A DNA stretch of 61,744 bases, filler included. It is 11 parts of 11 records of this genome, joined end to end, with 100 filler letters (N's around TTAATTAATTAA, not from the genome) between each part and the next. Parts side by side here need not be neighbours in the genome. Positions count along the whole stretch, not along the records: positions 1 to 4,886 come from SRR7504441_7453; 10 more parts are not named here. One strand, written 5' to 3'. Every line of letters starts with the position of its first letter. Position 1 is the first letter of the stretch. A program made the translations under genes and the position numbers. Below, one piece after another: positions 1 to 41,541 of the stretch. The notes below the pieces were generated by a model, which searched no databases, was not told where the DNA came from, and saw only the letters and a program-made list of their open reading frames with translations.

Positions 1-192
1 TGGGGACGGACGCTCATGAGAAATTCTTTTGTCGCGCGCCTACGTAATTTATTTTGTTAGACTTATACAGTTTTACAGTAGTAAATACAGTAGTACTGGT
101 AGGTCTGGGCAATGTGCTACCTCTCACGAAGATGCGCAAAGGGTCAGAGGCTTGGTTAGGGGCTTAGGGCAAGGAGCGCAGCTAGGCGGGCA

Positions 193-3100
193 ATGGCGGA
201 TTATGAGGACCTGAGCAAGGACGAGGCGGCTCTCAACAAGATCGAGAAGAAAGTACTCGAGGCGTACAGGGACCGCAACTCGTCGGGGATCAACCTGACC
301 CGACACCCGCTCCAGAATCTGGAACAATTCTTTCACGAGTGCGACCTGCAGGAGCTGGACCGCCGGTGCAAGATGGTCGCCGAGCGCAACCTGCACATGC
401 CCACCCTGGCCTGGGTGTCCGATTCGAATGTCCGGCTGCACATCTCTGCGCTGCACATCCTGGCCGAGCTGACAAACTTCGTCAACAAGCCGCAGCCAGA
501 CCGGCAGCTGGGCTGGGCCGGTCGCGTGTGCGACGCAGTGATCAAGCTCGGGGGCGTGGCGCCGGTGATGAACAAGCTGAACGCCACGGGCGAGCAGGTG
601 GCCACTCGGTACTCAGCCACCATCCTGACCAATCTTGCCAAGCACGACCCAGAACAAACCTCGCGCACGATCACCAAGGATCCGCAGCTGGTGGTACAAG
701 CGGTTCGCGTGATCCAGAATTTCAACCCGGGTGACGATGACGAGCTCCCAATCGCGTGCTCTGGGCTGCTCGTGGTCGTTTCATCCGAGGAGGACAACTG
801 CTCGGACCTCACCAACCAGCACCAGCTGCTCAGGGACCTGGTAGTCTGCATGAAGTGCCAGGTGGCCGCTCGAGCCGGCCATTCGGCGAGGAGGTGAGCA
901 GGTCTCTGGCGTCCAGCAGAACATTTATGAGACGTTGGCAAACCTGTCTCTCAACACCCATATGAAGGCTCGGATGAGCCAGAAGCAAGAGGATGGCTCC
1001 ATCTCGGTAGTGCAAACGATGGTGCGTGAACTTAACAAGGGAAATGTCCTCAAGGACGAAATGCTCGTGCCACTGGTGCTGAGCCCTGCCTAGACCACTG
1101 TTCTAGGCCAGGGCCAGGTGCGGCTGGTGGCAAACGTGTCTGTAGACGTGACCTCGCACGAGCACTTGGTGGCACCCAGGCACTTACAGGATGATTCGGA
1201 CGGCAAAGGCCAGAAGGAGGCCTGGAAGATATTTATAGAGAATGTGGTGCGGCTGTTGGGCACGACGCAGAACGCACCGCTTCAGCTCCAATTAGTCCGG
1301 TTGCTCAGGAACCTTGCTGCAACCGAACTGTGCAGGGAGCGGATCGTCAACCACGGCGCCACAGGCCCGCTGTTCCAGGCTGCCTGGCACTCTGTCCGGA
1401 CTGAGCAGGCGGTCAGGTGATCAGAGACACCGATGTGCATGACAAACAAGTGCACTACTGGGCGGCGGCGGCCATTGCCTCCATTGCACGCGAGCCCAGA
1501 CTGCATCCGAGACTGATGCGGGAGAAGGGCCTCAGGCCACTGGTTGCGTTCGCTGGGCTGCAGAACTCTGGTAGCGATGGTTGCGACCTTCGCACGAGGC
1601 TCTACGCGGCCAAGACTCTGGCAGAACTAGCCAAGAACGACGACAACAAGTCACAGATCATAGCAGAGGGTGGACTGGTCCCGCTGATTGTGTGGGCTCG
1701 CGGTTTTGGCAACATTGAGGTGCAGGAGGCCGCATGTGAGGCTCTCAAGCGACTCGGGGTGGACGCCTCTCTACTGGCCTCGAAGGAGGACGTCCAAGAG
1801 GTGACAGGGCTAGCTGGTCGGGCTGATTCCCTTCAGGCCAATCAAGACGAGAATCTAGTGACCAACTCGATCGGGATTCCTGAGATGGTCCAGTTGGCTG
1901 AATCGGACTTCATCGAGGTGCAAAGATGAATCTGGGCTGGTGCTGATGCAACCGACAGGTGCAGCTGTTCGCTGCAGGAGAACTGGCCAACACAGCGCTC
2001 AACCACGAGTCAATTGAGCAGGTACTTCGATACAGCGGGCTGCTGCCTCTGCTCAAGCTAGCTGAGTCTGCCAATGAGACAGTCCAGGCCCAGGCGACTC
2101 GAGCGCTTTTAAATCTCTCGTCAGATGATGACGGGCTGGATGTAGCCCACCTGACACGACTCAAGGAGCAGCGCGAGTGTCAGATTGATAAGAACACGAA
2201 GGGAGGAGGGCGGCGGATGAAGGACAAGCTGCTGCATGAGTATGAGCAGAAGATTTTACTGAAGGAGCGCAAGGTGGAGACCTACTCTAGTGCACTCGAT
2301 AAGCTACACAAGCTGGTGCACACTTCGTCAATGTATGTTCAGCGGAATGTGGCTGCGATGCTGGCTAATCTAGCAATCAAAGAGCAGATCCAGATGAAAA
2401 TGCTCATGCTCGAGCAGTCTGGCGAGGGTCGTTTTGCCCCTCTGCTTGGCGTGACGGTGATGCCTGCAGGTGGGATTTTTAATATGATGCAGATGTTGCA
2501 CTCGTCACCGAGTCTTGATATGAAGATCCACTCTGCACGCGCTCTGTTTAACCTGTCAGTCAACGAAGCGTGCAGGGAGAAGATTGTGGAGCTGCGAGGG
2601 GTCAAAATTTGTTTCGATCTTCTCTCGCATAAGAACGTGCAAATCAAAAGGCTAGTCATTGGCACTATTGCGCACATCGCCTCGTCAGCAGCAATGAGAA
2701 TCGAGCTCGCTGGTGCTTGCACAGATCTGGCCACGTTTTTCACTGTGGGATGCGTGCAGGTAAGACAATCGATGGGCTAGAGAGGTTGATAAGTCTTGCT
2801 CAGGAGACGCATGTCTCTATTGTCCAAGAACAGCTGGCCCGTGCTTTGGCTCTGCTCGCGATCAATGACGACAACAAGAAGAAGATTGTGGACCTCGGAG
2901 GATCCAAGATCATCATACGTTGGGCTGGCTCTAATAGAATAGGAGTCCAGATCCAGTCAGCCAAGGCGCTGTGCAACCTTCTTGAAGACAAACATCACTC
3001 CAACGACTACATTCGGCACCAGATCTTCAACGAGGGGGCTCTCCAGGTTTTGTTCATGCTCGCACAGATTGGCGACTCGCAGACAAAGCTTCAAGTGATC

Positions 3101-4771
3101 CGGATCATGCGCTCGCTGCGAACGTACAAAGGTGGCGACAAGTGGCTGCTAATTTTCGAGTTTTTCAAGGATGGCGGAATCACCCCACTCTGCCATTTGG
3201 TCACGAACCCACCACCAGGCAGTCTCCGGCTTCGGGTAAAGAGTGATGCAGCCACTGAGCTGATTGAGCTTCTTAAGCCTGCAGAGGGTGAGTCTGACTT
3301 GCAGGAGTTGTTAGGCAAGGTTCAGGCTACCGGTTCTGGGGCGCTGAATCAGCTGGGCAGGTGCTTCCGTGCCTGGTGCCGCTTATTGTGGTGTGGCCGC
3401 CACCTCAAGTGTCGGAGCAACAGGAGTCCACCCCAGAACTGCGCCGCAAGACATTGAGCTTGCTGCACAATCTGATTCAGGACAAGAAGCATCAGACTGA
3501 GGTGGCCAAGCTGTTGTCGGAGGGCTACATCGGACTCGAGCTGCTGGGGTTGATGCAGAAGGTGGCTGGCTGAGCTGCCAGGCTGGATAATGGCTGCAGG
3601 TGAACAACGCCAAACGGAACAAGAAGACCGGAAGCAAGCCCAACGCTGATATGCTGGAGACGGTGCGCGGTTCATATTGCTGCTGGGTGAGGGGTTTCAG
3701 GACTTTGACGCGTTGGATGAAGAAGTCTCGCGATTTGTACGGTCTCTTGTCGACCTCTGCAGGCTTCAGAAGGTGCGCAGCTGCAGACTGTGGTATATGC
3801 GGATGCTGGGGCTGTAGTGTGCTGGGTTTGAGCGGCAAGCTCCAGACGAGGACAAGGCTGATCAGGTCGATGTGGACCAGAACTTGGATAGGGCAGTCAG
3901 GGAGCGGCTCGAAGCGGTGATCTGGCCGTTGGCACGTCAGTGAACATCTGCTTCACAGGGTGCAACAGCAGCTGAAAACCAGGAGAAGATGGAGAATGCT
4001 TACGAGCAGATGCAGAACCAGTTGGGCTACATAGAAGCTGATCAGCTGCAGCGCTCTGGGGGCGCCAATGAGAAGAGAGTGTTCAAGGTGGTGGTGGTAG
4101 GCGATGCAGGTGTTGGAAAATCGAGCCTAATTCATCGGTGCCCAGCTGCACTGTGTTTGTTGAACCGACAAGAGCTGGTTAGGTACATAGAGCAGAAGCC
4201 CCCCCCAAAGGTAATGACGCCTACCATGGGATGCGAGTATAACTCAAAGAGAATCGAACGACCGGGCGTGACAGTCTTGCTACAGCTATTTGATATTCAG
4301 GGCCTGGAGAATTTCCGTAAAGCGGCGCCCCGTGCTTTCTTCAAGAAAGCGCATGGGTGCATTGTCGTGTTTGATTCAGATACAAAGCGCACCACCTCGT
4401 TCTATGGGGCACAAGAGTGGAAGAGGACTGTGGACTTTCATTTCGAGGAGGGCAACAGGAAGGGTGCGCCTGCTATCCTGATCGCTAACAAGTCTGACCT
4501 CCCCAATAACGAGAAGAACCCGTTTGTACGATCAGCAGCCAAGATGGACCGTTGTGTGCACGAGCATGGGTTCATCTCATGGCACGCATGTTCTGCACGC
4601 GATGGCAAAGGGCTCAAGACCGCCAATGGGGCAGCCACAGCGATCGATAGCTTAATTGACAGTTTGCTCATGTGGGAAAAGCAAGGCAAGTTTGTGTCCT
4701 CGGATCGTGACGAGGATGTGGCGGATCTCGACGCTAAGGCTGACACAAAAACGAGTGGATGTGGGTGTTAG
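193..4771 (+). CDS. Armadillo-repeat protein fused to a C-terminal Rab32/38/29-like GTPase (1359 aa, 13 exons)
   Basis: Removing 12 introns (862-901, 1076-1117, 1379-1416 GC-AG, 1918-1958, 2428-2469, 2713-2759, 3320-3360, 3562-3599, 3663-3700, 3773-3817, 3917-3958, 4138-4182; 499 nt total) leaves one open 4080-nt frame. ARM motifs include AAKTLAELA..NKSQIIAEGGLVPLI, ARALFNLS and AKALCNL. The G domain has GDAGVGKS, PTMG, DIQGLE, NKSD and SAR, and the protein ends in CGC. Confidence 0.85.
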
Positions 4772-4886
4772 ATCACCGGTCAATCATTTAAGTTTTAATC
4801 GATTAGGGCTTCGATCGATCTTAAGCTGTTAGTAACCTCACTCTAACATATACGAGTACGAAAACACTGTAAAAACACTGTAAATG

Positions 4887-4986
4887 NNNNNNNNNNNNNN
4901 NNNNNNNNNNNNNNNNNNNNNNNNNNNNNNTTAATTAATTAANNNNNNNNNNNNNNNNNNNNNNNNNNNNNNNNNNNNNNNNNNNN
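4887..4986. other. Artificial contig spacer (N44-TTAATTAATTAA-N44)
   Basis: The same 100-nt spacer with stops in all frames recurs at 17305-17404, 20548-20647, 23677-23776, 29626-29725, 37349-37448, 44753-44852, 50791-50890, 54423-54522 and 58257-58356. Confidence 0.99.
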
Positions 4987-8808: not shown

Positions 8809-11800
8809 ATGCCGCAAAGCGAGTGCTTCGGTGCGGGTCGGCGGGAGCGCCACTGACCGGCCGTGTGCCAGATGCCATCCGGAACGAAGCTCACCACGAC
8901 TTTTGGGTGGTGCGTACCGGCCTAACCAGCGGGGGCTGACTGGCCGGCCAGTGGTCGGCGGGCTACCTTGGGGTGTACCTCGGGCTGGCGGTGGTGTCCA
9001 CCGTCGTGCTCTGGTACTCCGGATCCACCCGGCCCACCCGGCTGTTCACCTGGATCTCCACCTGGCGTTGTATGAGATGCTGCTTCCAAACTATTATGTG
9101 CCGCGCCCCCCGCGGCGACCGTCTGACCGGCCGGGCCAGCATAGAGGCATTCACGATGATACTCTGGGTGGCCACGCTCTCCCCGGTGGCCACGATCGTA
9201 TTCTGGACGGTCAAGACCTTTTCTTTCGAGTTTACGGCCAGCGGAGTAGAGTATACCAACTGCAAGACGCTCACTTGCCTGGTCCTCTTCCTCGGCCTGG
9301 CCATGGAGGTACCGCCGGCCGGCTGGCCGCTCCAACCGCCGGCCAGACTACCCGTATTTCTGTGCTGATGTGGTATTTCAGAGGGTGGAGCCTACCCAGC
9401 ACGACGTCGAGCATCATGGTCGGGAGTCGGGCGAGTGCCGGCGCTCACGAGGCTTTAGGTGATGGCTGCGATCTGCTTCCTGGCGTACACCTTCCTGCTC
9501 ACCCTGACCGTCGCCACCAACGACGATTTGCTGGCCGCTATCACCTTCCTCACGCTGTCCGCCGCGCCTCTGCTCCGATTAGTGCACAGTTACTATGATG
9601 ATTTGGCCATAGACCTGAACGACTACCTCTACGGCGCCCAGACTCAGGTGGCGCGTGCCCGGCCCGCCGGTCGAGCCCCGGCAGGTGCTGGCCAAGGCCG
9701 CCAAGCCGACCAAGTTTGGAAGCGGGATTGAGGCTCGATGGGGGTTTGGAACCTACATGTTGCACTGGATGATTTCAGTAGCCGGTCACGCGGCCTACGC
9801 CTGTGCAGGCGCCCGCGCTGGCTGGCACACGGGCTGAGTGCTGCTGTGCAGCGAGTTACCTGACCACTCGCAGTAGCTCACCGGGTTATGTTGTGCCTTT
9901 CGTGTTCATCACAGACCTCGGGGTGCTGTTCATGCTGCAGGTTAACTCTGATTTAATTAAGCCATCGCTGACCGGGCGCAGTACCACCGGCTGCGTCATA
10001 TCGCCGAGTTGGTGCTCTCGCTCAGCTTGATCGTGCTTGTGAGAGTTATGGTGATTTACCTCGGTTGGTGTGACCGAGCCTCCAGCAAGCCAGGCGCCCC
10101 GATTCTTGCAATTCTATCAAGCCTGACCGTAAGCCAGGCGCGTGGGAGCTGGTGGAGCCGGCCATATACTTGGTGGTGTGCGCGGTGGGCTCCAAGCTCC
10201 TCTCGGATATGTTCTGGGTAATCCCTGACAAGAATCCAGAGAAGGTAGTCATCTCTGATCGGTGACCACCCCGAGCTTAAATAGCCATCCAGGCCTCTAA
10301 TGCTGGAGGTAGGTATAACGAGTGGCTCCGGAAGCAGCGCGCGATGGTGTATGAGCAACGGGACATTGTGTCCGACCAGATGGGATGCTGCTGCAAGATC
10401 TTTTACAAACTTGTGCTGTGCATGTACCGCATGATTGGTTGTCTGATGTGTCTGAGCACTTCGGCGGGGCAAGACCAGCCCAGCCCGTCCGAGCGGCTCG
10501 AGCAGGAGATCTCGCAGCTGCACCTGCGGGTTGTCGACTGCCAGGACGTTATCCTGGACTGTGAGCAAGAGCTCATATCTTCATTGTGTGTGCTGGCGCT
10601 CGATGGCAAGCCGCAAAAGCGGTACCAGCCCGTCCAGGAGGGCCAGGACGATCCGCGGACGGTTTGGAAGATTTCTCAGTATCCTCTGAGCAAAGACCTT
10701 GGCAGAAAGCTTGAGGAGCAGCGTGAACCTCTCGTCTCCAGAGGGGGGAGATGGGTGCAGAAATGCCCCAAAGGCTCCGAGCTGTCTCCAGAGGATCTGG
10801 CCCTGGCGCAGGAAGTGCTGGACGAGATGACTGCCGAACGGAACAGAGCACTGCGCATTATCTGGTGCAAGTCGCTGCTCCGGTCGCTGTATCTGTACCG
10901 ACAGCTGACAATTCTGGTGGTGCTGCATGCAGTGTTTGCTGTAGTCATGTGGTACAAAAGAGATCCAATCGAGCGTCAAGTGTTCCCGTTTGGGAGAACC
11001 ACCACAAACAATTTCTACTTTGAGGCAATGGTGTACGCTGGCGGCATATCCATTTGGACATTTGTGTACGGCGCATTGACTGCCTTCAGAGCTATGACGG
11101 AAGATATGGACGACGAAAGAGCGAATGTGCGTGCAGCCCTCCAAGCAGAGGACTCTAAATGGCCGATCAAGGCCAGAACCACGTTTGCGAATTGGCGGCC
11201 TTCTCCACTCACGTTTCATCATGATCTGGCACTCAAGGCAAGTGATCAGATGACTGACGTTGAGGAGGCTGTGAGCGCTGCATTGAAATCGGGCAACGGG
11301 ATGCTTGATTCTGAGATGACAAAGGTTGTGGGCGAAGTGACCGCTAGAGCCCACCTGCGTCAGTGGGCGCCCCTGCTGCAAGAGCTCAAGGTGCAGAAGA
11401 ACAAGCGTGCGGGGTTGGGCCCTTCAAAGTTTGCAGAATACTGTACTCCGATTCAGACATGCGCCTCTGATGACATCCAAGCTCAGTATGAGAGGTTGTT
11501 GCTGAGTCATGAAGTCAAGCAGAGCGAAGATCAGTCCAACCAAAACAAGGAGCGCATTGTGTCAATCCGATTAATTGCTCATCTGTGTGGCAATGCCATC
11601 GAACAAATTGCTGCCAGCTCTGTTACTGAGGCTCGGGGCTATGACAGAGACCGCGTCGCGCTGGTTGCCGTTGCAGTAAAATCTGCATCAATAGCGCATG
11701 CCTACTTTGAGGTAATGGGTGTGGGGCTCAGGCCTGTGGAAGATCACTGTGAAGCGGCAGCCCTGGCTGCTGCAGAGCGTGTGAATCTCCAGCTTACTAC

Positions 11801-14800
11801 AAAGAACCTGGCCAATGCACGGAACGGTGAAGCAGCTTTCCTCGGAAACAAGCGACTCAAGGAGATCCACCAAATTGCCAACGATCAGATCCGATGGCCC
11901 AGATTTGGTGGCATCAGCAGCAAGTATGGAAAAAAGATTCAGAAGTATCAGGCATGTCAGCAGTGCTAATAGACATGGCTGAGCGAGGTATCCAGGTACG
12001 GGCAAAATCTGCTTTGATTTGGGCAATTACTGCCATCATATTCGGTGGGTTTGGACTGGTGACATTTCTTGGGATTGTGATGCGACGAAACAAAGAGCTG
12101 TATGGCCCTGATAAAATATACTTCTTTGGGAACTATGAAGGTGACAGCGTTTGATGCCTTGATTGCCATTGAGCTAGCACCCTGTGCAGACAACAAGCGT
12201 AACTTCATCTACTCAATCTTTGCCCCTTTGATAGTCATTCCTTTCTTTGTTGTGGGCCGTTCTTGGTCAAGGAACAGTTGGTATTTCTTCACCAGTTCGG
12301 CCGAGACTTTTGCTTCGCTTTACCAGGAGTACCGTGCTGGGATCTTACCACAGCGTGATCTGATGAATGTTACTTTTACGCTCCTTGGCATTTTGTTCCT
12401 GATCGCCTGGTCAACTACTGTTGGTTGTGTCTTGAACGTTGCTGAAGGTTTCATTATTGCAATTGTGACACTTGTCCTTGTCACGACAGTACCACCAATC
12501 CTGCGAGCCATACAACATAGAAGCGCCAAATCTTTCCTCAGTGGGATGTTCCTGACTGGCTTTTTTACTGTTGCAGTGCTGAACATCATTTACTACGCAA
12601 TTGAAGGCATTTATACAATGGGCATTGTGTGCGCAGCTGTGTATACTGGGGCTGTCCTGGTCATCCTGTTCACGCGAGACTGTATGAATGGATGGCAGCA
12701 CAGCACTTTCCTGGCCACTGCGTCATTCACATGGACGATACCCTTCTTATTGACCATGATATGTATTTACAAGGAATATACCCATGTGCATGGTGAAAAC
12801 AACAAAGGCTGGATCTTTGCAGTGCTGTGCGCAGGCGCTTTAGTTATTGGCATGCTGGCACTTTTCTTCTTCCTGGCACGGCGGCTAACTTTAAGGGATG
12901 TGGAGTGGCGCTCTTTGCAGAGTGATAACAAAGGGCTTCATAATGACGATAGTGAAGAGCTGGCTATGATTCAGGAAGGGCGGACTGCCAGTGAACTTTC
13001 CATGGAGGTTCACAGCGAACTGATACCTAAAATGATACCGTCACACAGGGAGGAGCGTGATGCAGTCGACAACATGGGTTGCTGCTATCACTGTTGTTCA
13101 TTCCTAGGCGACAACATCGAGCCCATCATAATGGGCTGCATCGCTCTGGTCCTGATGGCAGCTGCTGTCACAGGCATGGCTGTGCTTTTGTGGAGCCAAG
13201 ATGAGGACTATACCTCAAGCATGAAAGTCTTCGCATACGGCACAGCATTTCTGGCTGTCTGCTACATTCTCGTGCTTGGCTACGGCGTGCTAGGCCAGGC
13301 AGATACCTGGGTGGCAACCTCCGGATTGCTGTTGCCTGCAATCATCCCCTCCAGAGACAAGAGTGGCTCGACTCACGACTTTACCAAACCAGTCATGACC
13401 CACAATAACCCATTTGGAGCGCTTGTGCTTGCTGCGGGTATCCTGATAACCTGGGGAATGGTGGCTACCATTTGCCCTGATGTGGACTTTCTATTTGGCC
13501 ACGAGCAGATGGCAGTGGGCATAGCAGCTGTGAACTTGAGCATTCTTTCATGCTTGGTTTATCCGTCGTACAAGAAGCTATGGTTGACCTACCAAGTCCA
13601 TGCTAACTTCCAGCATTTTGTCACGAAGCCAACAATTCAAACACCTCTCGAGGCCATTCAAACAATCTGTCTGAGGTGCTTCGAGGAAAGGGTCCTGGAA
13701 CCTTACGAAGCCGAGTCCACAACTGCAATGAAAACCCAAGAGGTATACGCGGTGGCATCAATGGCCTTTCGCAAAGTTTATAATAAGCAAGACTTTCCGC
13801 TGAACAGCCAGACCACGCCTCAGGAATACTACAATGCCAACAAGGACTTGTACTATGCAGAAGGGCAAGTCACAGAGGTGTTTGCCACGATGCTCAGGCG
13901 GCACTTTGGCACCACTGCTGATGACGACTACACGTTCGAGCAGTTCATGAGCTTCTTCAAGGCATATGTGCTAAGCTTGGGTGAGCTCAAGTACGAGGAT
14001 GCATTCATGGCCGAGAAGCGAGATCAGTCAATCACAGAGCTCAAGTATTTTCGGCATCAAGTCACAACGGTGTCGGCAAACAAGACTGTGGATGGGGCTG
14101 GGTTTACAGCACCAAGCCTTCGTGTCATTCTCGAGGAGGATCTCTACCCCAGGGCTATGTCGACTATGATGCCTTGTGCTTTCTTATGGAAGTGCAATTG
14201 TAAGAGTTACAATGGCGACACCAGCCGCCACCAGAGACTGTCGTACTTTCATGAGATCTATGACAAAGAAATGCTCTATGTCCGTTTAGGTCAAGAAAAG
14301 ATCAAGTTTGAATCGCACTTCGCGCTTGCTGTGGGGGTCACAGCTTACATGTCGAGCAAGATCGAAGATATTGCCTTCCATGCTCTGAGGAGTGGGTATG
14401 CTGAAGGTTTGCGGGACCAGATCAGCGATTCTGCAGAGGAAGAGGATGCACTTGCGCAGCTCAATCCCAACGAGGCTCCGCACCGCGGTCAATTCACTGA
14501 GCTGTTGGCCATCACTGTAATGGACACATCAACTCTTGCTTCTGGAGAGAACGAAGTCGAATGGTCATTTGGTACGAAGTCTGAGCCAAAACTGTTTATG
14601 GAGGCTGGGTTTGAACGTGAGGGCGATTACGGCGAGAGAGTCACACAAGCATGGGGGAAGTTGAACACTTGTAGTGGCGGAATTGTGACAGCATTCAAGC
14701 AGCTTGAATTGCTCTCTGAATATCTTGCCAAGCCATCCCAACCAGTCGAGCTTAAAGCTAGAGTGACCAGCACAGATCAAGAATTGGCTTCTGTCGAGCT

Positions 14801-17180
14801 CATCACACCCACCAAATGGAAGGAAATCTTTGGCTGCCTTGGGCCCTCGACACATGGCAGCGCTACAGAGCCCAGTGAGTCAGTGATTGACCTCTACAGT
14901 AAAGCAAAGCAGCTCCAGGAAGCTTGGAGCAAGCTCAGGAACCCGGAATGCTTCAAAAGGTGACATTGCCTGCTTATGAGTCCAACTGAATCGTGTCCTT
15001 GACTCAGGATGGAAGCACCTCTTGTATATTCTGCAGCGCTGCTGCTACAGTTCTACGATCTTGAGCTGTTCGTCGCGTGGTTTGCTTCCGGGGAAGACCG
15101 GTAGCACGGCCCAGGCAAGCAATCCCGGGTTTACTTGTGGCTCAGGTTCAATGCGTATGACGCATTGCGCGATTCTTCAGTCCCATGGCGAGTCTTCACT
15201 GACAAGATCATGAAAGAGGCGGACGACAATGGCAACAGCTTCGCAAATGAGAAGCCAAGAAAAGCTTTCACACAGCTCATCAATCCTGCAATCGTAATTA
15301 CCGATGGATTAATGGATGCCTCTCATGAGATTGTGGGCGACGCAAAGCCGGAGCTCGGCCCAGCTGTCCTGCGCGAGGCTTATCTGTTGGTCAAGGCATG
15401 CGTCTCACGCGGCTCAAGCTGACAAGTCCTGTGCAGGCCGAAGCGGTGTATGAGGTGGTGTATGAGCATGCAGCAGCAATAGGGTTCGATGAATGGTGCG
15501 TTGCTGCCATCATAAACGCTGAGCCTGGCTGACTGTGTCCACAGGGCGAAAGAACTCGAAATCTTGGCTCAAAAAGAAGGCATCATCGACCTCTGGACGC
15601 CGCACTCTGGCGATCGGAAGAAGGTGTTTACCAAGGGTCCCATTCCTCAAGCAGAGTTCCCCAAAATGCACACCAAGCTTTGCTTTTACCCTAAAGATTA
15701 TGTAGCGGGTTCGCTCTGTGTAAAGGGTCGGTCTTGGACCATGTTTGTGCAACTACTGGAGCTGGTCAAGAAGCATTATATCCAGAGTGTCGGACCACAA
15801 GCGTTCCTGCGGAATATTAAGCAGACCAGTCAAGCCAAGATGCACGAGTGGCTGCGCAAGACCACAGAGCAGGTCATCCAACCCTAGCCTGTGATCCCTC
15901 GACCTAGGGTGCACGACTGAATATGCGCTGGCTAGGTGGAAGAGATCTTTAACTCAGGTTTCTATTTTCGGAACTCGAGCTACTTATGGCATTTCAGTCA
16001 GCCTGAGGACGCAATACAGCAGCAGCCGCCAGCCGAGATGTACCAGCAGTACGAGAATCAGCTGCAGGAACTGATGAGCGACCCAATGATGCAACAAGCA
16101 ATCAACGCCGGATACGTGGATTCCAAAAAGGGGAAAGGATACCTCAACGATCTGGTCAGCTTGTTTGGCCAACCGCAGGAGGTCCGGAGAGACTACGCAG
16201 CTCTGTACAGGGTGGCCAGGATTGTCGGTATGAGTCAGGCTGAGGCCGACCACTCAACGTTCAGTCGTAAGAACGCACAGACGCTCAAACAGACCATGAT
16301 GGAGCACCTCGGCGGTGCGCTGGCCAATGACGACTTGGAGGGCCAGCTGATCCGCAGCGCCGCTCGGATTGTCTACCCGAAAGAGACGGTACAGCCCCAA
16401 CGGAAGCAAGTGCTGCATATTCTCGAAGGCTCAGACCTGCACCATCAAATCCATGAGCGTGACCACGCCAGCAGGAGGGCCGGTGGGACAGCAGCGAGTG
16501 GTGGTAGTGGGATAGAGCTTGGTGGCGTCAGTGGGGCCGGATCAGGTATCGCTTATCAGCCGCGGAAGGTGCGAGCCCTGGCCTGTATTTGGTGAGCCGT
16601 GTGTGGCCAGGGCCGGTTTGATCAACGGTTTGAAATGATCAACCTCTACGTGCTCGATAACATCTTGGTGGGCACCCGCAAGCTGGACGTCAACTTTGGC
16701 GCCAAACACGAGCAGCCTGAGGAAGTCGATTTCAACCCTATGGCTGACCCGGATCCCACCAAAGCCGAGGACGACGAGGACGAGCCCGCCCCTGACGAGG
16801 TCGGGCTGGACATGCCCGAGGCCGACTCGGTGTCTGGGTGCAACCTCTCGCTGGACGTAGTGCGGACATCGATGATCTTGCCGCTGGACACAGTGAACGA
16901 CATCAGTTTGCGAGACTTGCCCGATCTCCAGCTGCCGGTGCCGTCGGTGCTTGTGATTCGAGGCGAGAGGCTGATCAACGGCGAGCGGGTCAAGCAGAAA
17001 TGCTACATCTCGGCGCTGACCGTTGAAGACCACCAAGAGCTGCTGCTTACCCTGAGTGAGATGTCCGTGCCGAGTGCCACGAGCATCGAGATCGACTCGC
17101 CGGCCGAAAAGTACGACCCGCGCACCACCATGGATGAGCCTGCCAAAGCCGTCCCCCAGATGGGCAACGTGATGATTTAG
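8809..17180 (+). CDS. Very large multi-pass membrane protein (roughly 2,500 aa) of unknown function
   Basis: Starts MPQSECF|DAIRNEAHHDFWV|WSAGYLGVYLG. ORFs 8973, 9459, 10344, 11894, 12102, 15135, 15564, 15936 and 16599 can be linked by more than 15 short GT/GC-AG introns (e.g. 11952-11995, 15396-15436, 15873-15935). Many hydrophobic helices in two clusters are followed by a long soluble C-terminus. Confidence 0.7.
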
Positions 17181-17461
17181 ATTATGAGCGCTCGAGTGGT
17201 GATTTTGAGGGTCAATATTTGAGTATAATAGGATGACAAGAATTAGGTATTGTACTCGTATGAGTCTGATAATTGTCGTATGATGTGCTAATTGCAAGAG
17301 AAGGNNNNNNNNNNNNNNNNNNNNNNNNNNNNNNNNNNNNNNNNNNNNTTAATTAATTAANNNNNNNNNNNNNNNNNNNNNNNNNNNNNNNNNNNNNNNN
17401 NNNNTCCGGACTAAATGCTGGTTATTATAAATACCGGTTTAATTTTTAAAGGAGCGAAAGG

Positions 17462-20225: not shown

Positions 20226-20647
20226 GTCGTGCAGTTTCCTCGTGAATCATTATCGAATCACATATATAGAATAGATGAATTTATATATATGATACTATAC
20301 CGTACGGTGCAAAAGTCCCCAGGGTCAGCGGGTCAGTTTTTGCATGTTGGGAAGCGCCCTAAGGCTTTACCTTAGAGTGCTGGCAATGCAGTTCTCAGCA
20401 TCAGGCGGGTCCACCGCTGTCAATTTCCACGCATTGATAATTATGGTGCCTTATGGTGCTGTACCAGGGGTGCTCAAAGGCATTATCAGAAACTCTCTCC
20501 TGCCTCTAAGGGATACAGTAGTTCACTGGACCCGGTATAACGAAGAGNNNNNNNNNNNNNNNNNNNNNNNNNNNNNNNNNNNNNNNNNNNNTTAATTAAT
20601 TAANNNNNNNNNNNNNNNNNNNNNNNNNNNNNNNNNNNNNNNNNNNN

Positions 20648-29625: not shown

Positions 29626-29977
29626 NNNNNNNNNNNNNNNNNNNNNNNNNNNNNNNNNNNNNNNNNNNNTTAATTAATTAANNNNNNNNNNNNNNNNNNN
29701 NNNNNNNNNNNNNNNNNNNNNNNNNATCCGGGCCCGGCCCATCCGGATGGCCTCGAGCGGCCCGGCCCCAGACGGCGGCATCCCCGGGTGACCGGTGAAC
29801 TCGGCGCTGGCAGTGAGAAACGCCTCACGCGCCGCACTCTCGGTGGGCGCGCTGCGCTTTGAAACCCTCTGAGAATGAGATTTGCTCCGCATCACCAGGG
29901 CTGAGCGTTGGATATTCTTTCTATCAAAGCCAGGAGGAACGGGAGCGAGGCCTCTGAGGGGGAAAGCTCTAGAAGTC

Positions 29978-32900
29978 ATGCCTCCTGGAGCCAGGCGACG
30001 GCCCGGGGTCGGCGGGCTCTGGGTGGTTGTGCTCGCGTGCGCGGGGTGCTGGGGGCTGGGCACCGCGGACCAAGGTGCCGGTCGGAGGGCCGACGGGGCG
30101 GCTGAGCCGGGGGCGGCGGCAGGAGATGGTAATGGCGAGTCTCTGGGGGAGGCGCTCACGGACCGGGCCCCGGTGGATCTGGTGCCGGCCGGTCGGATCC
30201 GGTCGCGGCTTCTAGACGGGCTGCCGACCGGCCGGGGACGGGGGGCGGAGGACGAGTCGCTGGACCAGCTAGTGTCGGGGCTGATCGGGGCGATGGAGAA
30301 GGCGGACCGCAAGGGGCCTCAGCCGGCCAAAGTGCTCGGGCCGGAGGGGGCCGGGCAATACGACGTGCCGAGCAGGTACGACGAAAGCAAGGGGAACACC
30401 GCCTGGCTGCCGCCGTTCCCGTGCCGATGCGACAAGCCGCGCAACCACGGCCGGCTCAGCTGCCACCTGGAGTCGCTGCTGTTTAAAGATAAGCGCCGCT
30501 GGTGCCGGGTGGTCCAATCTACAGACTGCCCGCACCCGTTCCGTTACTGCGACCGACGAGCGTGGCACGAGACTGAAAAGTATGATGCAGACGAGGAGGA
30601 CCGGCTGTCCGCTGCCGACCATCAGGCGCGCCTAGCGGCCCGGCCGGACCGGAAGCCGCACGAGTTGGCGGCCAAGGCGCGCGAGGAGTTTCAGCTGCAG
30701 GCGGTGGCCTCAGCCTCCGAGCTGCGTGTTGAGCTCGAGAGAGTCTCTAGAATGGTCAGAAAGCACCGCGCGTACCTGGCGCGGCTGAGGAAAGAGGCGG
30801 CGGCGCATCATCTGATCGTCGCGGCGGAGGCGATGCTGGAGGCGGGCGAGCGGCGGGTGATCCGGCTTAGACGGCAGCAGCAGGCGATGAGAGGCCGAGT
30901 GGTGGTTGGGCTGACTCAGTATGCGCACAATCGGACCCTGTTCCGAGGCGACGCGCTGACTGCGGAGGAGATCAACCGGAGGGCGCTGGCAAAGGCGGCC
31001 GAGGAGTGGTGGAAGCTGGCAAAGGCCAAGAACATTAGCGAGGAGCGGATCAGCAAGAGCCAGAAGCGGCGAGTCGCCTCGATGGAGGCTGCAGTCAAGG
31101 CAGCCGAGAGCAACCACACAAACTCGGAGAAGGCGCACGACGAGCTGCTCGGCCGGGTGGAGCGGCTCCAGACCCGGTTGATTGGCCACCTGCGCAAAGA
31201 GCATCGGGATAAGACAAGATTGGCTGAGCAGGCTGTTGCGAACGCGTCACGCACACTCGCTGAGCGGGACTCGAGTCGGAAGGCGGCCGAGGCGAGGCTG
31301 GTGGAGTTCCAGCGGGCTGATGTGTACGTGACCCAGCAGCAGCGGAAGGCCGGGCGGGTCCTGAGGGTCCAGGCGCGCAGGCACGCACGGGAGCTGGTCG
31401 CAGGGTACGACAACGACGTGGCGGCGCAGGCAGTGACCGACGCGGCGATCGAAGTGCAGGGTGCGGCCAAGCTGCTGGTGGAGCGGCAGCAGCAGCTCAA
31501 GGCCGCACTGCTAGACGAGCAGAAGCGGTGGGAGAGCAGGGTCGGGACGGCTGAGGGGGTCAAACAACAGAAGGCCAAGAAAGCGGAGCTGGCCAAACTC
31601 AAAGTTGCGCAGGTGGAGCAGGCGATGGAGCAGGAGCGCAAGCAGAAGAGCAAGCAGGCCGACTTGGCCGAGCGCCGGCGCAAGGAGCAGATCAGGCTCG
31701 ATGCCGAGTTTGAAGAGCGTATCCGGAGCAAGCGGAGGAAACGAGTGGCGCTGGAGGCCCAGCACAAAGCCGACCACAAGTTGAAGCAGGCTGAGCTGGC
31801 CCGGGAGAAGGCCAAGAAGGAGGCTGAAGAGGGCCAGTTCAAGGACAGACAGGAGCGCAGGCTGAAGAAAGCCAAGGCTGAACGGCTGGAGAGGAGGGAT
31901 AAGCGGGCCGATGAGTTCGACACGAAGCAGAAGCAGACACTGCGATCGTCGGAGCTGGGCGGCAAAAGGGCCGAGGCCAAGTCCAAGCGCGAGAACGAGA
32001 GTCATGAGAAAGAGGTGCGCAAGAAAGCAGTCACAGAGCGGGCTGCCAAGGAGAAGCAAGCAAAGGCTGCCGAGGAGGAAGCAGAAATAAGTCTCAAGAA
32101 GGCTGAAGCCAACGCTGAGAAGAAAGAGAAGGCCCAGGCCAAGGAATTCGCCGAGAGGATGGCCAAAGAGAAGGAGGAAGCAGAGCAGCAGTTGATGGAT
32201 GTCCATGGACCCAAGCTGAGGCTGCACAAGGAGATGGACTGGGCAGACGCTCAGCACCCTGTCCTCACCGAAAAGAAGGACGGGGCCTGCCACGCGATGT
32301 TTAAGGCGGGAGTTGGATACTGCAATCGTACCAACCCAGGAGAGCCTGAAGATGGCTCTCAACTTAAATGTGGCTGTAAGCGTGGGCTGCAGGCAGTTTA
32401 TCAGTCAGTGACCAAATTGACTGAGTGCAGTGCGAGTGGCTGTGGAGCCTGGTACGGCAAGCGAAATCTGGAGCAGCAGGCCAAGATTATTGACACGTTT
32501 GTGGCTCAAGCTGGCCAGATGGAAGGCTGGGGCCATAAGTGCATGGTTACCTCCCCATCAGCTGAGCCATACACCAGTGTCAAAATGACGGGCCCTGACA
32601 AGTGGCTGCACGATCCCAAGCGGCATCCCAACTTTGACTGGGTATTTGACCCAATCGCGGTGAGGAAGCAGCAGGGCAGCGCGGCGCTGCCAGGCTGTGT
32701 ATCAATGTTCTATGTTGGTGTGGCAGCCTGTAGCGTGGGCAGCATCTTCACTGCCAAGTTCGCCGACCCAACTAGCAATGTGACTAGAACTGCTAAGGTC
32801 GGGGATGGATGTAAAGGGAAGCTCCTATATGCTGGCTGGTATGGCCAGCTGCTGTCGATGAGGAGTCAGGAAGAGGAATTACAGAAAAGTTGCATCTCAG

Positions 32901-35900: not shown

Positions 35901-37348
35901 AGAGAGCCAAGGAGATTGCGAAGAAGATTAAGGAGAAGAAAGAAAAGGTTAGGAAGCTGCGCGAACGCAAATTGAAGCGAGCTGAGGAAAAGCGAAGTAA
36001 GGTCAAGGCTGCCGAGATCAAGAAGAAAGAGGAAGCTGCTGCTAAGGAAAAAGCAGCCAAATTGAAGGCGGCCGAGGTCAAGAAGAAAGCCAAGGAAGCT
36101 GCTGCTAAAAAGTTGTCGGCTGAACAGGCAATGAAAGCTGAGCAGGCTGCCAAAAAGGAGAAGAAAACTAAGCAACGAGTCGAAGAACTTGCAGCAAAGG
36201 GCAGAGAGGCCAAGGCTAAAGCAAACCAAGGCAGGATTCGAAAAGCAGAGAATGCTGACAAGGAAAAGATTCGAAAAGAGAAAGCTGCCAAGGAAAAGAC
36301 GCGCAAAAAGGAACAGAACGCAAAGAAGGAAGCTGTCGAAAAGGAAGGAAGAAAAAAGCAGGCTGAACGAGATGCTAAGGAGCGTGCTCGCAAGCGAGAG
36401 CAGGCTGAAAAGAAGAGACAACAAGAGCTTCAAAGGAAGCAGCAGGAACAAGAAAAGAAAGAAAAAGCGAAGGCAGCTGAGAAGGCAAAGAAGGCTCGTG
36501 TCCAGGAGCAGGAGCAGAAAGCAGCTCAAGCGGCTGCCGAAATATCGAGGCGCAAATATGAGAAAGCACTTAAAGAAAAGCAAGCAAAGGATGAGAGACG
36601 CTTGAAGCAGCTGGAGCTCAAGCGTAAGGCTGAAAAGGAGAAGAGCGATAAAGCTGAGCAGGCCAAAGATCAGGAAAAGGAGCGCAAGGCAAAAGAGAAG
36701 ATGCGCAAGATTAAGCGCAAGGAACTTGAAGAAAAACGCAAGAAGGAGACTCTGGACAAAACTAGAGCAAAATTGCGCCTGCAAGAGCGTGAAGATAAGC
36801 GGATCAAGATCCAGAAGGAGAAGAACGCAAAGAAGCTAGAGGCGCTTGAAGTTGCACGTAAGCGGTAAGCATCGTATTGTGCCATGATGCTGGGCTAACT
36901 ATTGTGTTGCAGTTCTGAAGAGCAAAGTCAGAAGGCTGAGCAGAAGGTGAAAGAGAATGCACAAAAGATGAAAGAGAAGCAGGAGAAATTCCAGAAGCTA
37001 CTCAAGCGAAAGGAGCAACAAAAGAAGAAAGAGGCAAAGCAGAAGGCTGAAGAACGAGTGCCAAAGAAGGAGGGGGAGGGCAAGGCAGAAGGAAAGAAGA
37101 AACGGGCAATCGCGGAGGCTGCTGCAAAGAAAGAGGCATCGCTTGAAAAGAAGAGCAAGGAGGATAAGCAAAAAGAGATTGAGGGAGTCGAGAAGGAAAA
37201 GAAGGCCAAGGAGAAGGTTGCAAAGGCTAGGGAGAAGCAGAAGAAGGAAAAGCAGAAGAAGGAGAAGGATCAGAAGCGGCTGAAGATGCTCGAGAGGAAG
37301 CGCAAGTTCGCTAGGGAAAGCGCTGACAAAGCCCAGCAGAAGCTGGAG
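29978..37348 (+). CDS. Giant secreted Lys/Glu-rich coiled-coil protein with a duplicated Cys/Trp-rich domain (over 2,400 aa, 3' partial)
   Basis: A 6.9-kb first exon begins with a signal-peptide-like MPPGARRRPGVGGLWVVVLACAGCWG. Intron 36865-36912 (GTAAGC..GCTAAC..CAG) continues the frame to the contig end. Confidence 0.85.
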
Positions 37349-40600: not shown

Positions 40601-41473
40601 AGCCATCAACCGGACAGCGTCGCTGGCCATCCGCTCTCGAAGGTGTGAGGCCAGCCCTGGTGCTGGCGCTAATTCGACCAACTTTTGGTGGTTGAGCTGA
40701 ACGCTGCAGTCTCTATCAAACAAGTGGACGCAGCCCCCGTGCTCGTCCGCAAGCACCTGCACTTCCACGTGCCGGGGCCGGTCAACCATCTTTTCGACAA
40801 ACACAGCCGAACTGCCGAATGCCGCCTCAGCCTCCCGAGAGCAGCTCACGAATGCTGCCACGAGCTGGTCTGCTGCCCTGACCACCCGAATCCCCTTGCC
40901 GCCACCGCCGGCTGACGCCTTGACCATCAACGGATACCCGATCTGCCGCTCCGCCACCAGCCGTTCTGCCTCCAACGGGCTGGCGACGGGCCCCGTCCCG
41001 GGTAGCACTGGTACCCCAGCCTCGGCCGCTAGGCCCCTCGCGGCGACCTTATCTCCAAAGAGGCGGATCGCCGCAACTGGCGGACCGATGAACTTGATCC
41101 CGGCCGCGGCACACGCGCCAGCCAGCGCCGCGCTCTCAGAGAGAAGTCCGTACCCGGGGTGGATGCAGTCGCACCCAGCCTCCTGTGCGGCCGATACGAT
41201 CAAATTCGGCGTGAGATAGCCGGCAGCCGGCGAGCCCGTGGGGTCGCTGGCCTGGAGCAGCACGCTGGTGCGCGCGGTCCGCGTGTGGAGCGCCTGGGCG
41301 TCCTCCGGCACGTGGATGGCCACTGTGTCCACCCCGAGCGTCTGGGCCGCTAAAGCGATGCGCACTGCGATCTCGCCCCGGTTGGCGATTAGCACCCGCC
41401 GGAGCAGCTGGCCGGCAGTGAGCTGGCGGGCCAGCTGGCCGAGGCGCGCGACTCCTCTGTGGTCACGGTCCAT
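37652..41473 (-). CDS. Single-chain biotin-dependent acyl-CoA carboxylase (BC-BCCP-CT order, long-chain acyl-CoA carboxylase type)
   Basis: BC: VLIANRGEIA, IHPGYG, KASAGGGGKG, ECNPRIQ|VEH. BCCP: SMKMEH. CT: DYTVLAGTQG, EGGGGRPGD, GMGGPSMIE|GGGLG, DTPGFMVG, RKAYGLGAQAM. Several introns, including 40409-40513 and GC-AG 38762-38800. Confidence 0.92.
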
Positions 41474-41541
41474 GGACTCGATCAGGAAGGTCGCTCTACC
41501 GGGCCCGAAAATCAACGGATCCTGGCTCCAGCAAAGCGGAT

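What the first reader, a model, noticed from the sequence alone, without database searches (positions are those of the whole stretch)
193..4771. Giant Rab: about 1,100 aa of armadillo-repeat sequence fused to a prenylatable Rab32/38/29-like GTPase
Seen: 12 introns restore a single 1359-aa frame, and bridging exons 3701-3772 and 3818-3916 keep phase into the GTPase, which ends in the CxC motif CGC. The segment FYGAQEWKRTVD..PAILIANKSD resembles the Rab32/38/29 group. Established: described large Rabs (Rab44, RASEF, CRACR2A) carry EF-hand and coiled-coil extensions. ARM proteins act on small GTPases in trans (SmgGDS; the LRRK2 ARM domain binds Rab29/32/38). Inference: a Rab covalently tied to its own ARM scaffold or effector, a large-Rab architecture I do not recognise.
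Basis: partly seen in the sequence, partly recalled or inferred. Interest (0 to 1): 0.75.

Follow-up and report, generated by a model that had tools for sequence, protein, structure and literature searches.

The report
Giant armadillo-repeat Rab GTPase of telonemids
This is a real 13-exon gene of a Telonema-like marine protist that joins about 1,000 residues of armadillo repeats to a lipid-anchored Rab32-like GTP switch lacking the usual catalytic glutamine, a Rab design I found described in no paper.

Summary
Twelve introns of 38-47 nt (11 GT-AG, 1 GC-AG) join 193-4771 into one 1359-aa frame ending in CGC.

The spliced protein is colinear over all 13 exons with a 1340-aa Telonema subtile transcript ORF: 71% identity over 1317 positions. 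Related contigs carry the repeats, linker and GTPase in one uninterrupted frame. RNA contigs from two metatranscriptome studies splice out 3917-3958 exactly, so the GTPase mRNA reaches upstream of the ATG at 3989.

The N-terminal ~1,026 aa fold as an armadillo solenoid. Its specific relatives are this family only.

The GTPase has intact G1, G2, G4 and G5 motifs. Its best solved matches are Rab32, Rab38 and Rab29, 14-19 bits above any other Rab. All 14 family members have Leu or His in place of the switch II glutamine.

I read it as a prenylated large Rab that holds an ARM scaffold on a membrane. Binding of the repeats to their own Rab domain is not shown. Eight literature searches, seven of them aimed at the architecture, found no description of it. 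Novelty: a new variant of a known kind.

The parts
193..4771 (+). Whole coding region: 13 exons, 12 introns, 1359 codons plus the stop TAG at 4769-4771
   Evidence: There is no internal stop after splicing. It is 71.1% identical to P0016 over 1317 positions and 77.3% identical to P0029 over 1123.
193..3561 (+). Exons 1-8: 193-861, 902-1075, 1118-1378, 1417-1917, 1959-2427, 2470-2712, 2760-3319, 3361-3561. They encode the armadillo-repeat solenoid, residues 1 to about 1026.
   Evidence: Pfam Arm and ARM_ARMC5. In the AF2 model of homologue P0029 the equivalent region is all helical repeats. Foldseek top rows are beta-catenin, designed ARM proteins and an axonemal ARM chain. Exon 1 alone is helical with weak ARM matches.
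862..901 (+). Intron 1, 40 nt, GT-AG. It stands for the class of 12 tiny introns. The others are 1076-1117, 1379-1416 (GC-AG), 1918-1958, 2428-2469, 2713-2759, 3320-3360, 3562-3599, 3663-3700, 3773-3817, 3917-3958 and 4138-4182.
   Evidence: Gaps in the tblastn alignment to transcript ORF P0016. Lengths are 38-47 nt. A contig of run X1, filed without a library type and read as DNA, keeps intron 1 (record 3, 777-955).
3600..3916 (+). Linker exons 9-11 (3600-3662, 3701-3772, 3818-3916). Exon 10 encodes the conserved helix DFDALDEEVSRFVRSLVDLCRL.
   Evidence: All three are in phase 0 and multiples of 3. They are colinear with P0016 and P0001. In the AF2 model of P0029 the matching helix is 824-839, flanked by residues with pLDDT under 50.
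3917..3958 (+). Intron 11, 42 nt, seen spliced out in RNA
   Evidence: table 5. A joint 3915/3916 to 3958/3959 (GT..AG) appears in one contig each of RNA runs X2 and X4, which come from different studies, with 0 mismatches. X4 record 13 covers 3856-3915 plus 3958-4125.
4073..4690 (+). Rab32-like GTPase domain, interrupted by intron 12 at 4138-4182. P-loop GDAGVGKS is at 4100-4123, switch II DIQGLE at 4292-4309 and NKSD at 4487-4498.
   Evidence: Pfam Ras 6.1e-20. PDB best hits are Rab32, Rab29 and Rab38. Motif table. Coordinates are derived and read.
4691..4768 (+). Acidic, disordered tail ending in the prenylation motif Cys-Gly-Cys (4760-4768)
   Evidence: Sequence. The tail of the AF2 model has pLDDT under 50 (1107-1126 of P0029). 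CXC or CC ends 12 of 13 native C-termini.

Best explanation
SHOWN.
- Bases 193-4771 are one gene of a Telonema-like protist. Its mRNA, after removal of 12 tiny introns, encodes a 1359-aa protein.
- The protein is an armadillo-repeat solenoid of about 1,026 aa, then a ~115-aa flexible linker, then a C-terminal GTPase, a disordered tail and a Cys-X-Cys end.
- The linker carries one conserved amphipathic helix and a ~40-residue helix that leads into the GTPase.
- The GTPase has complete nucleotide-binding motifs.
- The GTPase is most like Rab32/38/29 among solved structures.
- Every family member has Leu or His where Rabs have the switch II glutamine.

INFERRED.
- The CXC end is doubly geranylgeranylated, as in Rabs. 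The Rab domain therefore acts as a membrane-address and anchor module that holds a very large protein-binding ARM platform on one organelle.
- Without the cis-glutamine, intrinsic GTP hydrolysis should be slow, so the protein should stay in the GTP form for long periods. It could still be switched off by a TBC-type GAP, which supplies its own Arg and Gln fingers.
- Partners are bound by the ARM groove, not recruited in trans as a small Rab would do. In effect the effector or scaffold is built in.
- Which organelle is involved is unknown. A lysosome-related or extrusome-type compartment is a guess from the Rab32 likeness only.
For: One gene, one protein.
- The spliced frame has no stop.
- It is colinear over all 13 exons with the Telonema subtile Trinity ORF P0016 (1340 aa, Arm plus Ras).
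- P0001 (432 aa) spans the end of the ARM region, the linker and the GTPase.
- All 4 of 4 related loci fetched from metagenome contigs carry the ARM part upstream of the GTPase on the same strand. L002 is a complete 1370-aa ORF with a stop upstream. L001 is a 1221-aa ORF open at its 5' end. L003 is 1177 aa from stop to stop. L004 has one frame shift.
- RNA contigs of two studies splice intron 11 and reach back to 3856.

Fold.
- AF2 model of P0029: mean pLDDT 76. It shows a helical solenoid at 1-803, a helix at 824-839, a helix at 866-906, an alpha/beta GTPase at 912-1100 and a disordered tail.
- Foldseek gives ARM proteins.

GTPase.
- G1 GDxxVGK[ST] in 12 of 12 sequences that cover it, T[LM]G in 13 of 13, NK[SA]D in 14 of 14, and DIQG[LH][ED] in 14 of 14 (9 Leu, 5 His, 0 Gln).
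- PDB phmmer: the top 9 of 199 distinct sequences are Rab32, Rab29 or Rab38 at 76.5-70.5 bits, and the next is Rab1A at 57.5.
- Family profile: the top 9 of 181 are the same three Rabs at 91-73 bits, and the next is Rab27A at 59.

GAP logic. TBC GAPs give Arg and Gln in trans, and the Rab's own G3 Gln does not take part in catalysis (PMC5902221, passages read).
Against: - No RNA contig of the four runs laid covers 3261-3855. In this species the link from ARM to linker therefore rests on the reading frame and on relatives.
- A shorter Rab-only isoform from an internal start is not excluded.
- No reference Rab phylogeny could be built. The Rab32 placement is by best hit only, and three of the best PDB chains are Q-to-L constructs that share the Leu (alignments).
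- The family sits on a long stem: 2.11 changes per column from the only outgroup I had, EF-hand large Rabs and weak hits.
- The positions of the Rab-family motifs as I recall them (IGVDF, KLQIW, YYRGA) are divergent here (MGCEY, LLQLF, FFKKA).
- Prenylation, nucleotide state, membrane location and partners are all untested.
Confidence: 0.6

Rival explanations
1. Self-binding large Rab. The ARM solenoid is the effector, chaperone or auto-inhibitor of its own Rab domain. It would clasp the switch regions in cis, as the LRRK2 ARM domain binds Rab29/32/38 or SmgGDS binds small GTPases in trans.
For: The fusion is conserved across three subgroups of the family. The flexible ~115-aa linker would allow folding back. 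The GTPase is nearest to the very Rabs that LRRK2's ARM domain binds (abstracts of PMC9576273 and PMC4216093 seen in search listing 20).
Against: There is no specific likeness of the ARM part to LRRK2's. PF23744 gives no hit at E<=1 in 3 of 3 family proteins. No LRRK2 or SmgGDS chain is among the Foldseek rows listed. No contact evidence of any kind was obtained.
Confidence: 0.2
2. The GTPase is not a Rab32-family member. It would be an independently divergent, lineage-specific Rab-like GTPase whose likeness to Rab32/38/29 comes from convergence or a long branch.
For: The stem branch is long. Identity to Rab32 is only about a third (alignments). The switch II Gln is lost. The Rab-family motif positions are divergent. 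The best named hits in the large protein collection were EF-hand large Rabs at E 3e-11, not Rab32, although that search picks candidates by shared words.
Against: All nine best PDB sequences are Rab32, Rab38 or Rab29 in two searches, 14-19 bits above other Rabs. The D-I-x-G form of G3 is shared with Rab32 and Rab29 in those alignments.
Confidence: 0.35
3. Two genes. An ARM gene would end near 3573 and a separate small Rab gene would start at the ATG at 3989. The apparent fusion would be an artefact of reading through a short spacer.
For: There is an in-frame TGA at 3571-3573 if intron 8 is not removed. An ATG lies at 3989. No RNA cover was found for 3261-3855.
Against: RNA contigs reach 3856 and splice 3917-3958 exactly as the fused model needs. 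Four successive 38-45 nt GTG...YAG introns leave exons of 63, 72 and 99 nt in phase 0. The linker exons are conserved in P0016, P0001, P0029, P0004, P0017 and L001-L004, which are single ORFs.
Confidence: 0.03
4. A Roco/LRRK-type protein: ARM repeats plus a Roc GTPase.
For: Pfam Roc PF08477 also matches, at 1.7e-14. LRRK2 has an N-terminal ARM domain.
Against: Ras scores higher than Roc in all six proteins scanned (the window piece, P0016, P0018, P0029, P0183 and P0184). There is no COR, kinase or LRR hit at the thresholds used (E<=1, E<=0.001). The GTPase is the last domain and ends in a Rab-type CXC motif.
Confidence: 0.02

Closest known systems
Rab32 subfamily (Rab32, Rab38, Rab29/Rab7L1)
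   Same: These are the best sequence matches among all solved structures. They share the D-I-x-G form of the G3 motif, a similar alpha3-beta5 stretch (..GAPAILIANKSD against ..PIPAVLLANKCD) and a C-terminal Cys motif.
   Different: Those are ~200-230-aa stand-alone proteins with a catalytic Gln. This one has ~1,140 extra N-terminal residues and Leu or His at that place. Identity is only about one third. No tree was made.
Large Rab GTPases Rab44, Rab45/RASEF and Rab46/CRACR2A
   Same: Both have a C-terminal Rab domain with a prenylation site, preceded by a long helix and a large N-terminal extension (PMC8303950 passages; PMC7645795 abstract in listing 46). The best named hits in the large protein collection were EFCAB4B-like proteins.
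   Different: Their extension is an EF-hand plus a coiled coil (plus a proline-rich region). Here it is ~1,000 aa of ARM repeats, with no EF-hand hit. In the tree the family is a separate clade, with 100/99 support.
LRRK2 ARM domain acting on Rab29/32/38 in trans
   Same: An ARM solenoid and a Rab32-type GTPase are functionally paired (abstracts in listing 20).
   Different: There they are two proteins, here one chain. PF23744 does not match. There is no Roc-COR-kinase part.
SmgGDS (an ARM-repeat chaperone/GEF of prenylated small GTPases) and RJL/DNAJC27 (a Rab-like GTPase with a J domain). Both are recalled, not tested.
   Same: ARM repeats handling prenylated GTPases, and a Rab-like domain fused to another module.
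   Different: SmgGDS works in trans and was not among the Foldseek rows listed. RJL carries a C-terminal J domain, not N-terminal ARM repeats.

Membership tests
Ras superfamily / Rab family | G1 GxxxxGK[ST], G2 Thr, G4 NKxD and G5 SA[K/R] nucleotide-binding motifs (as listed in PMC5902221) | tested here: met
   The window has GDAGVGKS, TMG, NKSD and SAR. The family has G1 in 12 of 12, T[LM]G in 13 of 13 and NK[SA]D in 14 of 14. Pfam Ras 6.1e-20.
Ras superfamily / Rab family | G3 DxxGQ with the catalytic Gln | tested here: not met
   DIQG[L/H][E/D] in 14 of 14: 9 Leu, 5 His and 0 Gln.
Rab family | C-terminal CC/CXC double-prenylation motif after a variable tail | tested here: met
   The window ends in CGC. 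12 of 13 native C-termini end in CXC or CC. P0008 ends in CASCAVQ. P0016's end is lost.
Rab family | Rab-family (RabF) motifs around the switch regions (recalled from Pereira-Leal and Seabra, not from a call) | tested here: inconclusive
   The positions read MGCEY, LLQLF, FFKKAHG and VVFDSD (alignment). This is similar in pattern but divergent. No formal Rab classifier was available.
Rab32 subfamily | Groups with Rab32A/B in a phylogeny with a reference Rab set | not tested
   No reference Rab sequences could be obtained. Only best-hit ranking was possible: Rab32/38/29 take ranks 1-9.
Large Rab GTPases (Rab44/45/46) | N-terminal EF-hand domain | tested here: not met
   No EF-hand family appears in the Pfam scans of the window pieces, P0016, P0018, P0029, P0183 or P0184.
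Large Rab GTPases (Rab44/45/46) | Coiled coil before a C-terminal prenylated Rab domain | tested here: inconclusive
   AF2 gives one long helix, 866-906, directly before the GTPase of P0029. Self-association was not tested.
Roco proteins (LRRK-like) | COR domain following the Roc GTPase | tested here: not met
   No COR hit. Only a ~25-residue disordered tail follows the GTPase.
LRRK2-type ARM domain | Match to Pfam ARM_LRRK2 (PF23744) | tested here: not met
   Absent at E<=1 in P0016, P0018 and P0029. The same library does detect it in the unrelated ARM proteins P0037 and P0047.
Armadillo-repeat proteins | Tandem three-helix ARM repeats forming a solenoid | tested here: met
   Pfam Arm 6e-23 and ARM_ARMC5 7.4e-27 in P0016. 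AF2 gives a helical solenoid. Foldseek E 1e-12 to 1e-13 to beta-catenin and designed ARM proteins.

The most novel reading that the evidence does not exclude
The fusion is a 'Rosetta stone'. An ARM solenoid and a Rab32-type GTPase were already working partners, as in LRRK2 with Rab29/32/38, and telonemids fixed the pair in one chain. With the hydrolytic Gln gone, the Rab domain is permanently 'on'. It is then either clasped by its own ARM groove or linker helix (a self-contained, GAP-gated tether) or it pins the solenoid to a lysosome-related or extrusome membrane. That would point to an ancient ARM-Rab32 module older than LRRK2.
Probability: 0.12. Interest if true: 0.7.

Novelty: new variant of a known kind. 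Interest (0 to 1): 0.45.

Why it matters
Rabs are almost always small, stand-alone switches that recruit effectors in trans. The few known large Rabs carry EF-hands and coiled coils. Klopper et al. 2012 (PMC3425129, passage read) count Rab44 and Rab45 as two of only three Rabs with an additional domain.

A conserved family in which ~1,000 residues of ARM scaffold are welded to a prenylated Rab32-like domain shows another way to build a membrane-addressed scaffold. Every member carries at the catalytic position either the Leu used in the laboratory 'GTP-locked' mutation or a His.

It gives a natural test case for how far the cis-glutamine is needed in a Rab. It also gives a marker protein for the cell biology of Telonemia, a deep-branching and little-studied phylum. 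It is lineage-restricted as far as the searched collections show, so its reach is modest unless the ARM-Rab32 pairing proves ancient.

Tried and rejected
- Whole genome of the window: none is held.
- Rfam scan of the window: 0 matches.
- Shortest-path and longest-frame intron solvers gave biologically wrong models, skipping exons or using 17-23 nt 'introns'. I replaced them with a homology-guided model.
- Complex prediction, ARM (P0029 60-800) against GTPase (905-1110) with GTP and Mg: score 0.00 in two runs, controls not run. The tool's verdict is no answer either way, and its alignment input was not used.
- The AF2 full-length model has pTM 0.48, so it gives no confident relative placement of the domains. 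I had no PAE or coordinates, so this says nothing on self-binding.
- ESM Atlas with P0029: no usable hit.
- Search of earlier scan notes: nothing for this genome, and the word search returned only unrelated archaeal Rab-like fusions.
- The search for related loci with the 16-row alignment A2 failed for lack of conserved columns. It was redone with A1.
- No RNA contig covered 3261-3855 or intron 12 in the four runs laid. This is absence of cover only.
- Runs with small word shares were not used to name a habitat.
- A Rab reference phylogeny was not possible, because no reference Rab sequences were obtainable through the tools.
They might list telonemid Rab32 candidates.
Full report
WHAT THE WINDOW IS. 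The 61,744-base window is a chain of 11 contigs joined by N44-TTAATTAATTAA-N44 linkers. The finding fills the first contig, 1-4886. That contig holds this one gene, with 192 bases in front and 115 behind. No whole genome is held for the window. Rfam found nothing in it.

THE OBSERVATION. A stop-to-stop ORF list shows the + strand as a row of open pieces in changing frames. Pfam finds Armadillo repeats in the upstream pieces: 8.4e-15 in 1947-2780 and 1.3e-6 in 2633-3457. It finds a Ras-family GTPase in 3944-4768 at 6.1e-20. Three of the seven upstream pieces match no family. My purely mechanical intron solvers gave misleading models.

The right model came from two sources: a list of GTG/GTA...YAG candidates of 34-51 nt, and a tblastn of a full-length relative. 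It has twelve introns:
- 862-901
- 1076-1117
- 1379-1416 (GC-AG)
- 1918-1958
- 2428-2469
- 2713-2759
- 3320-3360
- 3562-3599
- 3663-3700
- 3773-3817
- 3917-3958
- 4138-4182

They are 38-47 nt long and total 499 nt. What is left is 4080 nt, or 1359 codons, without an internal stop, ending Gly-Cys-Gly-Cys-stop. In one search I had intron 5 one base too far left; the coordinates given here are read.

IS IT ONE GENE? Four lines of evidence say yes.

(a) A search with the GTPase part among longer proteins found P0016. It is a 1340-aa Trinity transcript ORF with precomputed Arm and Ras domains. The cluster look-up names it EP00656_Telonema_subtile_P025625. It aligns colinearly with all 13 exons. Gaps fall exactly at each intron, including the two in-frame introns that contain no stop. 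Identity is 71.1% over 1317 positions. Its last residues look like a translated sequencing adapter (a recalled pattern), so its true C-terminus is missing.

(b) P0001 (432 aa, 77% identical in the GTPase) runs from the last ARM repeats through the linker into the GTPase. P0029 belongs to the same 90% cluster. It is 1126 aa and 77.3% identical to the window protein over 1123 positions.

(c) A scan of metagenome contigs with the GTPase alignment A1 gave 4 loci, and in all 4 the ARM part lies upstream on the same strand.
- L002 has a complete 1370-aa ORF preceded by a stop.
- L001 has a 1221-aa ORF open at its 5' end.
- L003 has 1177 aa from stop to stop and matches the 3617-nt contig length on record for P0029.
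- L004 has the same layout with one frame shift.
Pfam shows Arm plus Ras in L001 and L002. These contigs have none of the window's introns, so they are most simply mRNA-derived. That is my inference, not a record.

(d) For the window's own sequence, contigs of two metatranscriptome runs from different studies, X2 and X4 (X4 is a polyA library), join 3915/3916 to 3958/3959 with 0 mismatches. X4 record 13 reaches back to 3856. So the mRNA that carries the GTPase exon starts upstream of the ATG at 3989 and is spliced as the fused model needs. A contig of run X1, filed without a library type and read as DNA, keeps intron 1 (record 3).

One gap remains: none of the four runs covers 3261-3855 or intron 12. 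A further short isoform therefore cannot be excluded.

ANATOMY. AF2 on P0029 with a 16-row family alignment gave mean pLDDT 76 and pTM 0.48. The model shows:
- a continuous helical-repeat solenoid at 1-803;
- a disordered stretch at 802-822;
- a helix at 824-839, which is the conserved DFDxLDEEVSxYV segment encoded by exon 10;
- residues of low confidence (pLDDT under 50) at 849-885, overlapping the start of the next helix;
- one long helix at 866-906 leading into the GTPase;
- an alpha/beta GTPase at 912-1100;
- a disordered tail at 1107-1126.

Foldseek of that model finds beta-catenin/plakoglobin, designed ARM proteins and an ARM chain of axonemal doublet complexes, at E 1e-13 to 1e-10. No LRRK2 or SmgGDS chain is in the rows listed. 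Exon 1, which P0029 lacks, is also all-helical (pLDDT 74), with weak ARM matches at E about 1e-3. In window terms the solenoid is exons 1-8 (residues 1 to ~1026), the linker is residues ~1027-1142, the GTPase starts at Lys1143 (base 4073), and the CGC motif is at 4760-4768.

WHAT THE ARM PART IS RELATED TO. A word-based search with residues 1-1030 of P0016 found only itself and three generic ARM proteins. These are a beta-catenin-like protein of Tetraselmis at 7e-10, a Juncus protein, and ARMC3.

An exhaustive phmmer of exon 7 (window:2762-3319) against 1.84 billion representatives gave 297 hits at E<=1e-3 and 39 at <=1e-10. Only 3 reached <=1e-30: P0018, which is a 1250-aa family member, and two fragments. 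Of the 8 next-best long hits that I scanned, 0 carry a Ras domain. They are generic ARM proteins with kinase, BTB, F-box/SPRY or LRRK2-type ARM domains.

Pfam ARM_LRRK2 does not match P0016, P0018 or P0029 at E<=1. So the solenoid is a family-specific ARM domain with no detectable stand-alone orthologue.

WHAT THE GTPASE IS. The motifs for phosphate, magnesium and guanine binding are intact across the family:
- G1 in 12 of 12 sequences that cover it;
- T[LM]G in 13 of 13;
- NK[SA]D in 14 of 14;
- S[AS]x in G5.

Against all PDB chains, the single sequence hits 199 distinct sequences at E<=1e-5. The first nine are all Rab32, Rab29/Rab7L1 or Rab38 (76.5-70.5 bits), and the tenth is Rab1A at 57.5. 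A six-row family profile gives the same nine at 91-73 bits, followed by Rab27A at 59. Three of the best chains are Q-to-L constructs (DIAGLERF in the printed alignments). That inflates their scores by a few bits but cannot explain a 14-19 bit margin.

In the large protein collection the best named hits were EF-hand large Rabs (EFCAB4B-like, 3e-11, about 30% identity). That search picks candidates by shared words.

In a tree of 14 family GTPase domains with 9 such outgroup sequences, the family is one clade (100/99) on a long stem (2.11). It has three subgroups:
- the window, T. subtile, P0029, P0006 and P0008 (DIQGLENF; 100/98);
- P0017, P0004, P0003 and P0002 (DIQGLERY);
- a His-type group of P0018, P0019, L001, L002 and P0009.

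I could not bring reference Rab sequences into the session. Membership of the Rab32 subfamily is therefore a best-hit statement, not a phylogenetic one.

THE MISSING GLUTAMINE. In all 14 of 14 members, switch II reads DIQG[L/H][E/D]: 9 Leu, 5 His and no Gln. The G3 glutamine is the residue needed for GTP hydrolysis. TBC-domain GAPs, however, supply both an Arg and a Gln finger in trans, and in that mechanism the Rab's own Gln does not take part (PMC5902221, passages read). Slow intrinsic hydrolysis, with GAP control possibly retained, is therefore the expectation. This is untested.

HOW IT MOST LIKELY WORKS. The architecture, the conservation, the intact nucleotide pocket and the CXC end are shown. 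The rest is inferred.
- The tail is geranylgeranylated like a Rab's.
- The Rab domain gives membrane address and anchorage.
- The protein dwells in the GTP form.
- The ~1,000-aa ARM groove binds partners, so the 'effector' is built in.

It remains open: the only direct test I could run gave no verdict, and the AF2 model does not fix the domains relative to each other. Two-gene and Roco-type readings are contradicted. For the first, see the RNA joint and the single ORFs in relatives. For the second, there is no COR domain, Ras scores above Roc, and the GTPase is terminal and carries a prenyl motif.

COMPARISON AND NOVELTY. The known large Rabs (Rab44, Rab45/RASEF, Rab46/CRACR2A) have an EF-hand, a coiled coil, sometimes a proline-rich region, and a C-terminal prenylated Rab domain (PMC8303950, passages read). 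Klopper et al. count Rab44 and Rab45 as two of three Rabs with an additional domain (PMC3425129, passage read). The recent survey of the Rab32 family across eukaryotes has no occurrence of 'armadillo', 'Telonem' or 'multidomain' in its main text (PMC11513930, term search).

Full-text searches for Rab with armadillo, Telonema, large Rab, domain-architecture terms and 'ARM-Rab' spellings found no description of this architecture. The search for 'ARM-Rab', 'armadillo-Rab' and 'Rab-ARM' found 0 papers. The protein does exist, unremarked, in a public predicted proteome (P0016).

I rate it a new variant of a known kind: large Rabs with a different, much larger extension and a replaced catalytic residue. 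As far as the searched collections show, it is restricted to Telonema and its unnamed relatives.

VERDICT. Interest is moderate (0.45). The architecture is real, conserved and apparently undescribed. It is lineage-specific, though, and its alluring link to LRRK2-type ARM-Rab pairing has no support yet.

Noticed in passing
window 4887-4986, 17305-17404, 20548-20647 and seven more: The window is not one molecule. It is 11 contigs joined by N44-TTAATTAATTAA-N44 linkers, so neighbourhood across the linkers means nothing.
   Followed up: yes
window 862-4182 (the 12 introns): All introns are 38-47 nt. Nine of the 12 start GTG, one is GC-AG, and their G+C is 53-72%. This is an unusually tight class of tiny introns for a G+C-rich eukaryote. 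Whether it holds genome-wide was not checked on the other contigs.
   Followed up: partly
window 72-79 (-), 4866-4873 (+), 4877-4884 (+): The octamer ACTGTAAA occurs only at the two ends of contig 1, in inverted orientation. There are 3 matches against 0.6 expected, and 2 of 100 shuffles reach 3. It may be a promoter or polyadenylation-region motif, or chance. A contig of run X1 diverges from the window before base 13 and after 4820.
   Followed up: partly
window 29879-36868 (+), 12081-14963 (+), 10281-11969 (+), 59076-60902 (-), 49354-50838 (-): These are very long uninterrupted ORFs (2329, 960, 562, 608 and 494 aa) with no Pfam family at E<=1e-5. The 2329-aa one fills most of its contig.
   Followed up: no
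window 44895-46568 (+), 50937-52403 (+), 40235-41671 (-): Ordinary genes on other contigs: an aldehyde dehydrogenase (6e-83), an S28 serine carboxypeptidase (1e-55) and a biotin carboxylase/ATP-grasp enzyme (8.5e-67).
   Followed up: no
P0016 C-terminus (Telonema subtile record): The last ~14 residues (…LIHISEPTRPY) look like a translated sequencing adapter (a recalled pattern). If so, the public ORF labelled 'complete' lacks its true tail and prenylation motif.
   Followed up: partly
L004 about 1797-1830; L003 1-40: L004 has a frame shift inside the GTPase, between PRAFF and KDAHG. The first ~40 bases of L003 do not match exon 1 and carry a stop. These are probably assembly-end or indel artefacts.
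   Followed up: partly
P0008 C-terminus: One family member ends in …CASCAVQ instead of CXC or CC. This looks like a CAAX-type box and would imply a different prenylation route.
   Followed up: no
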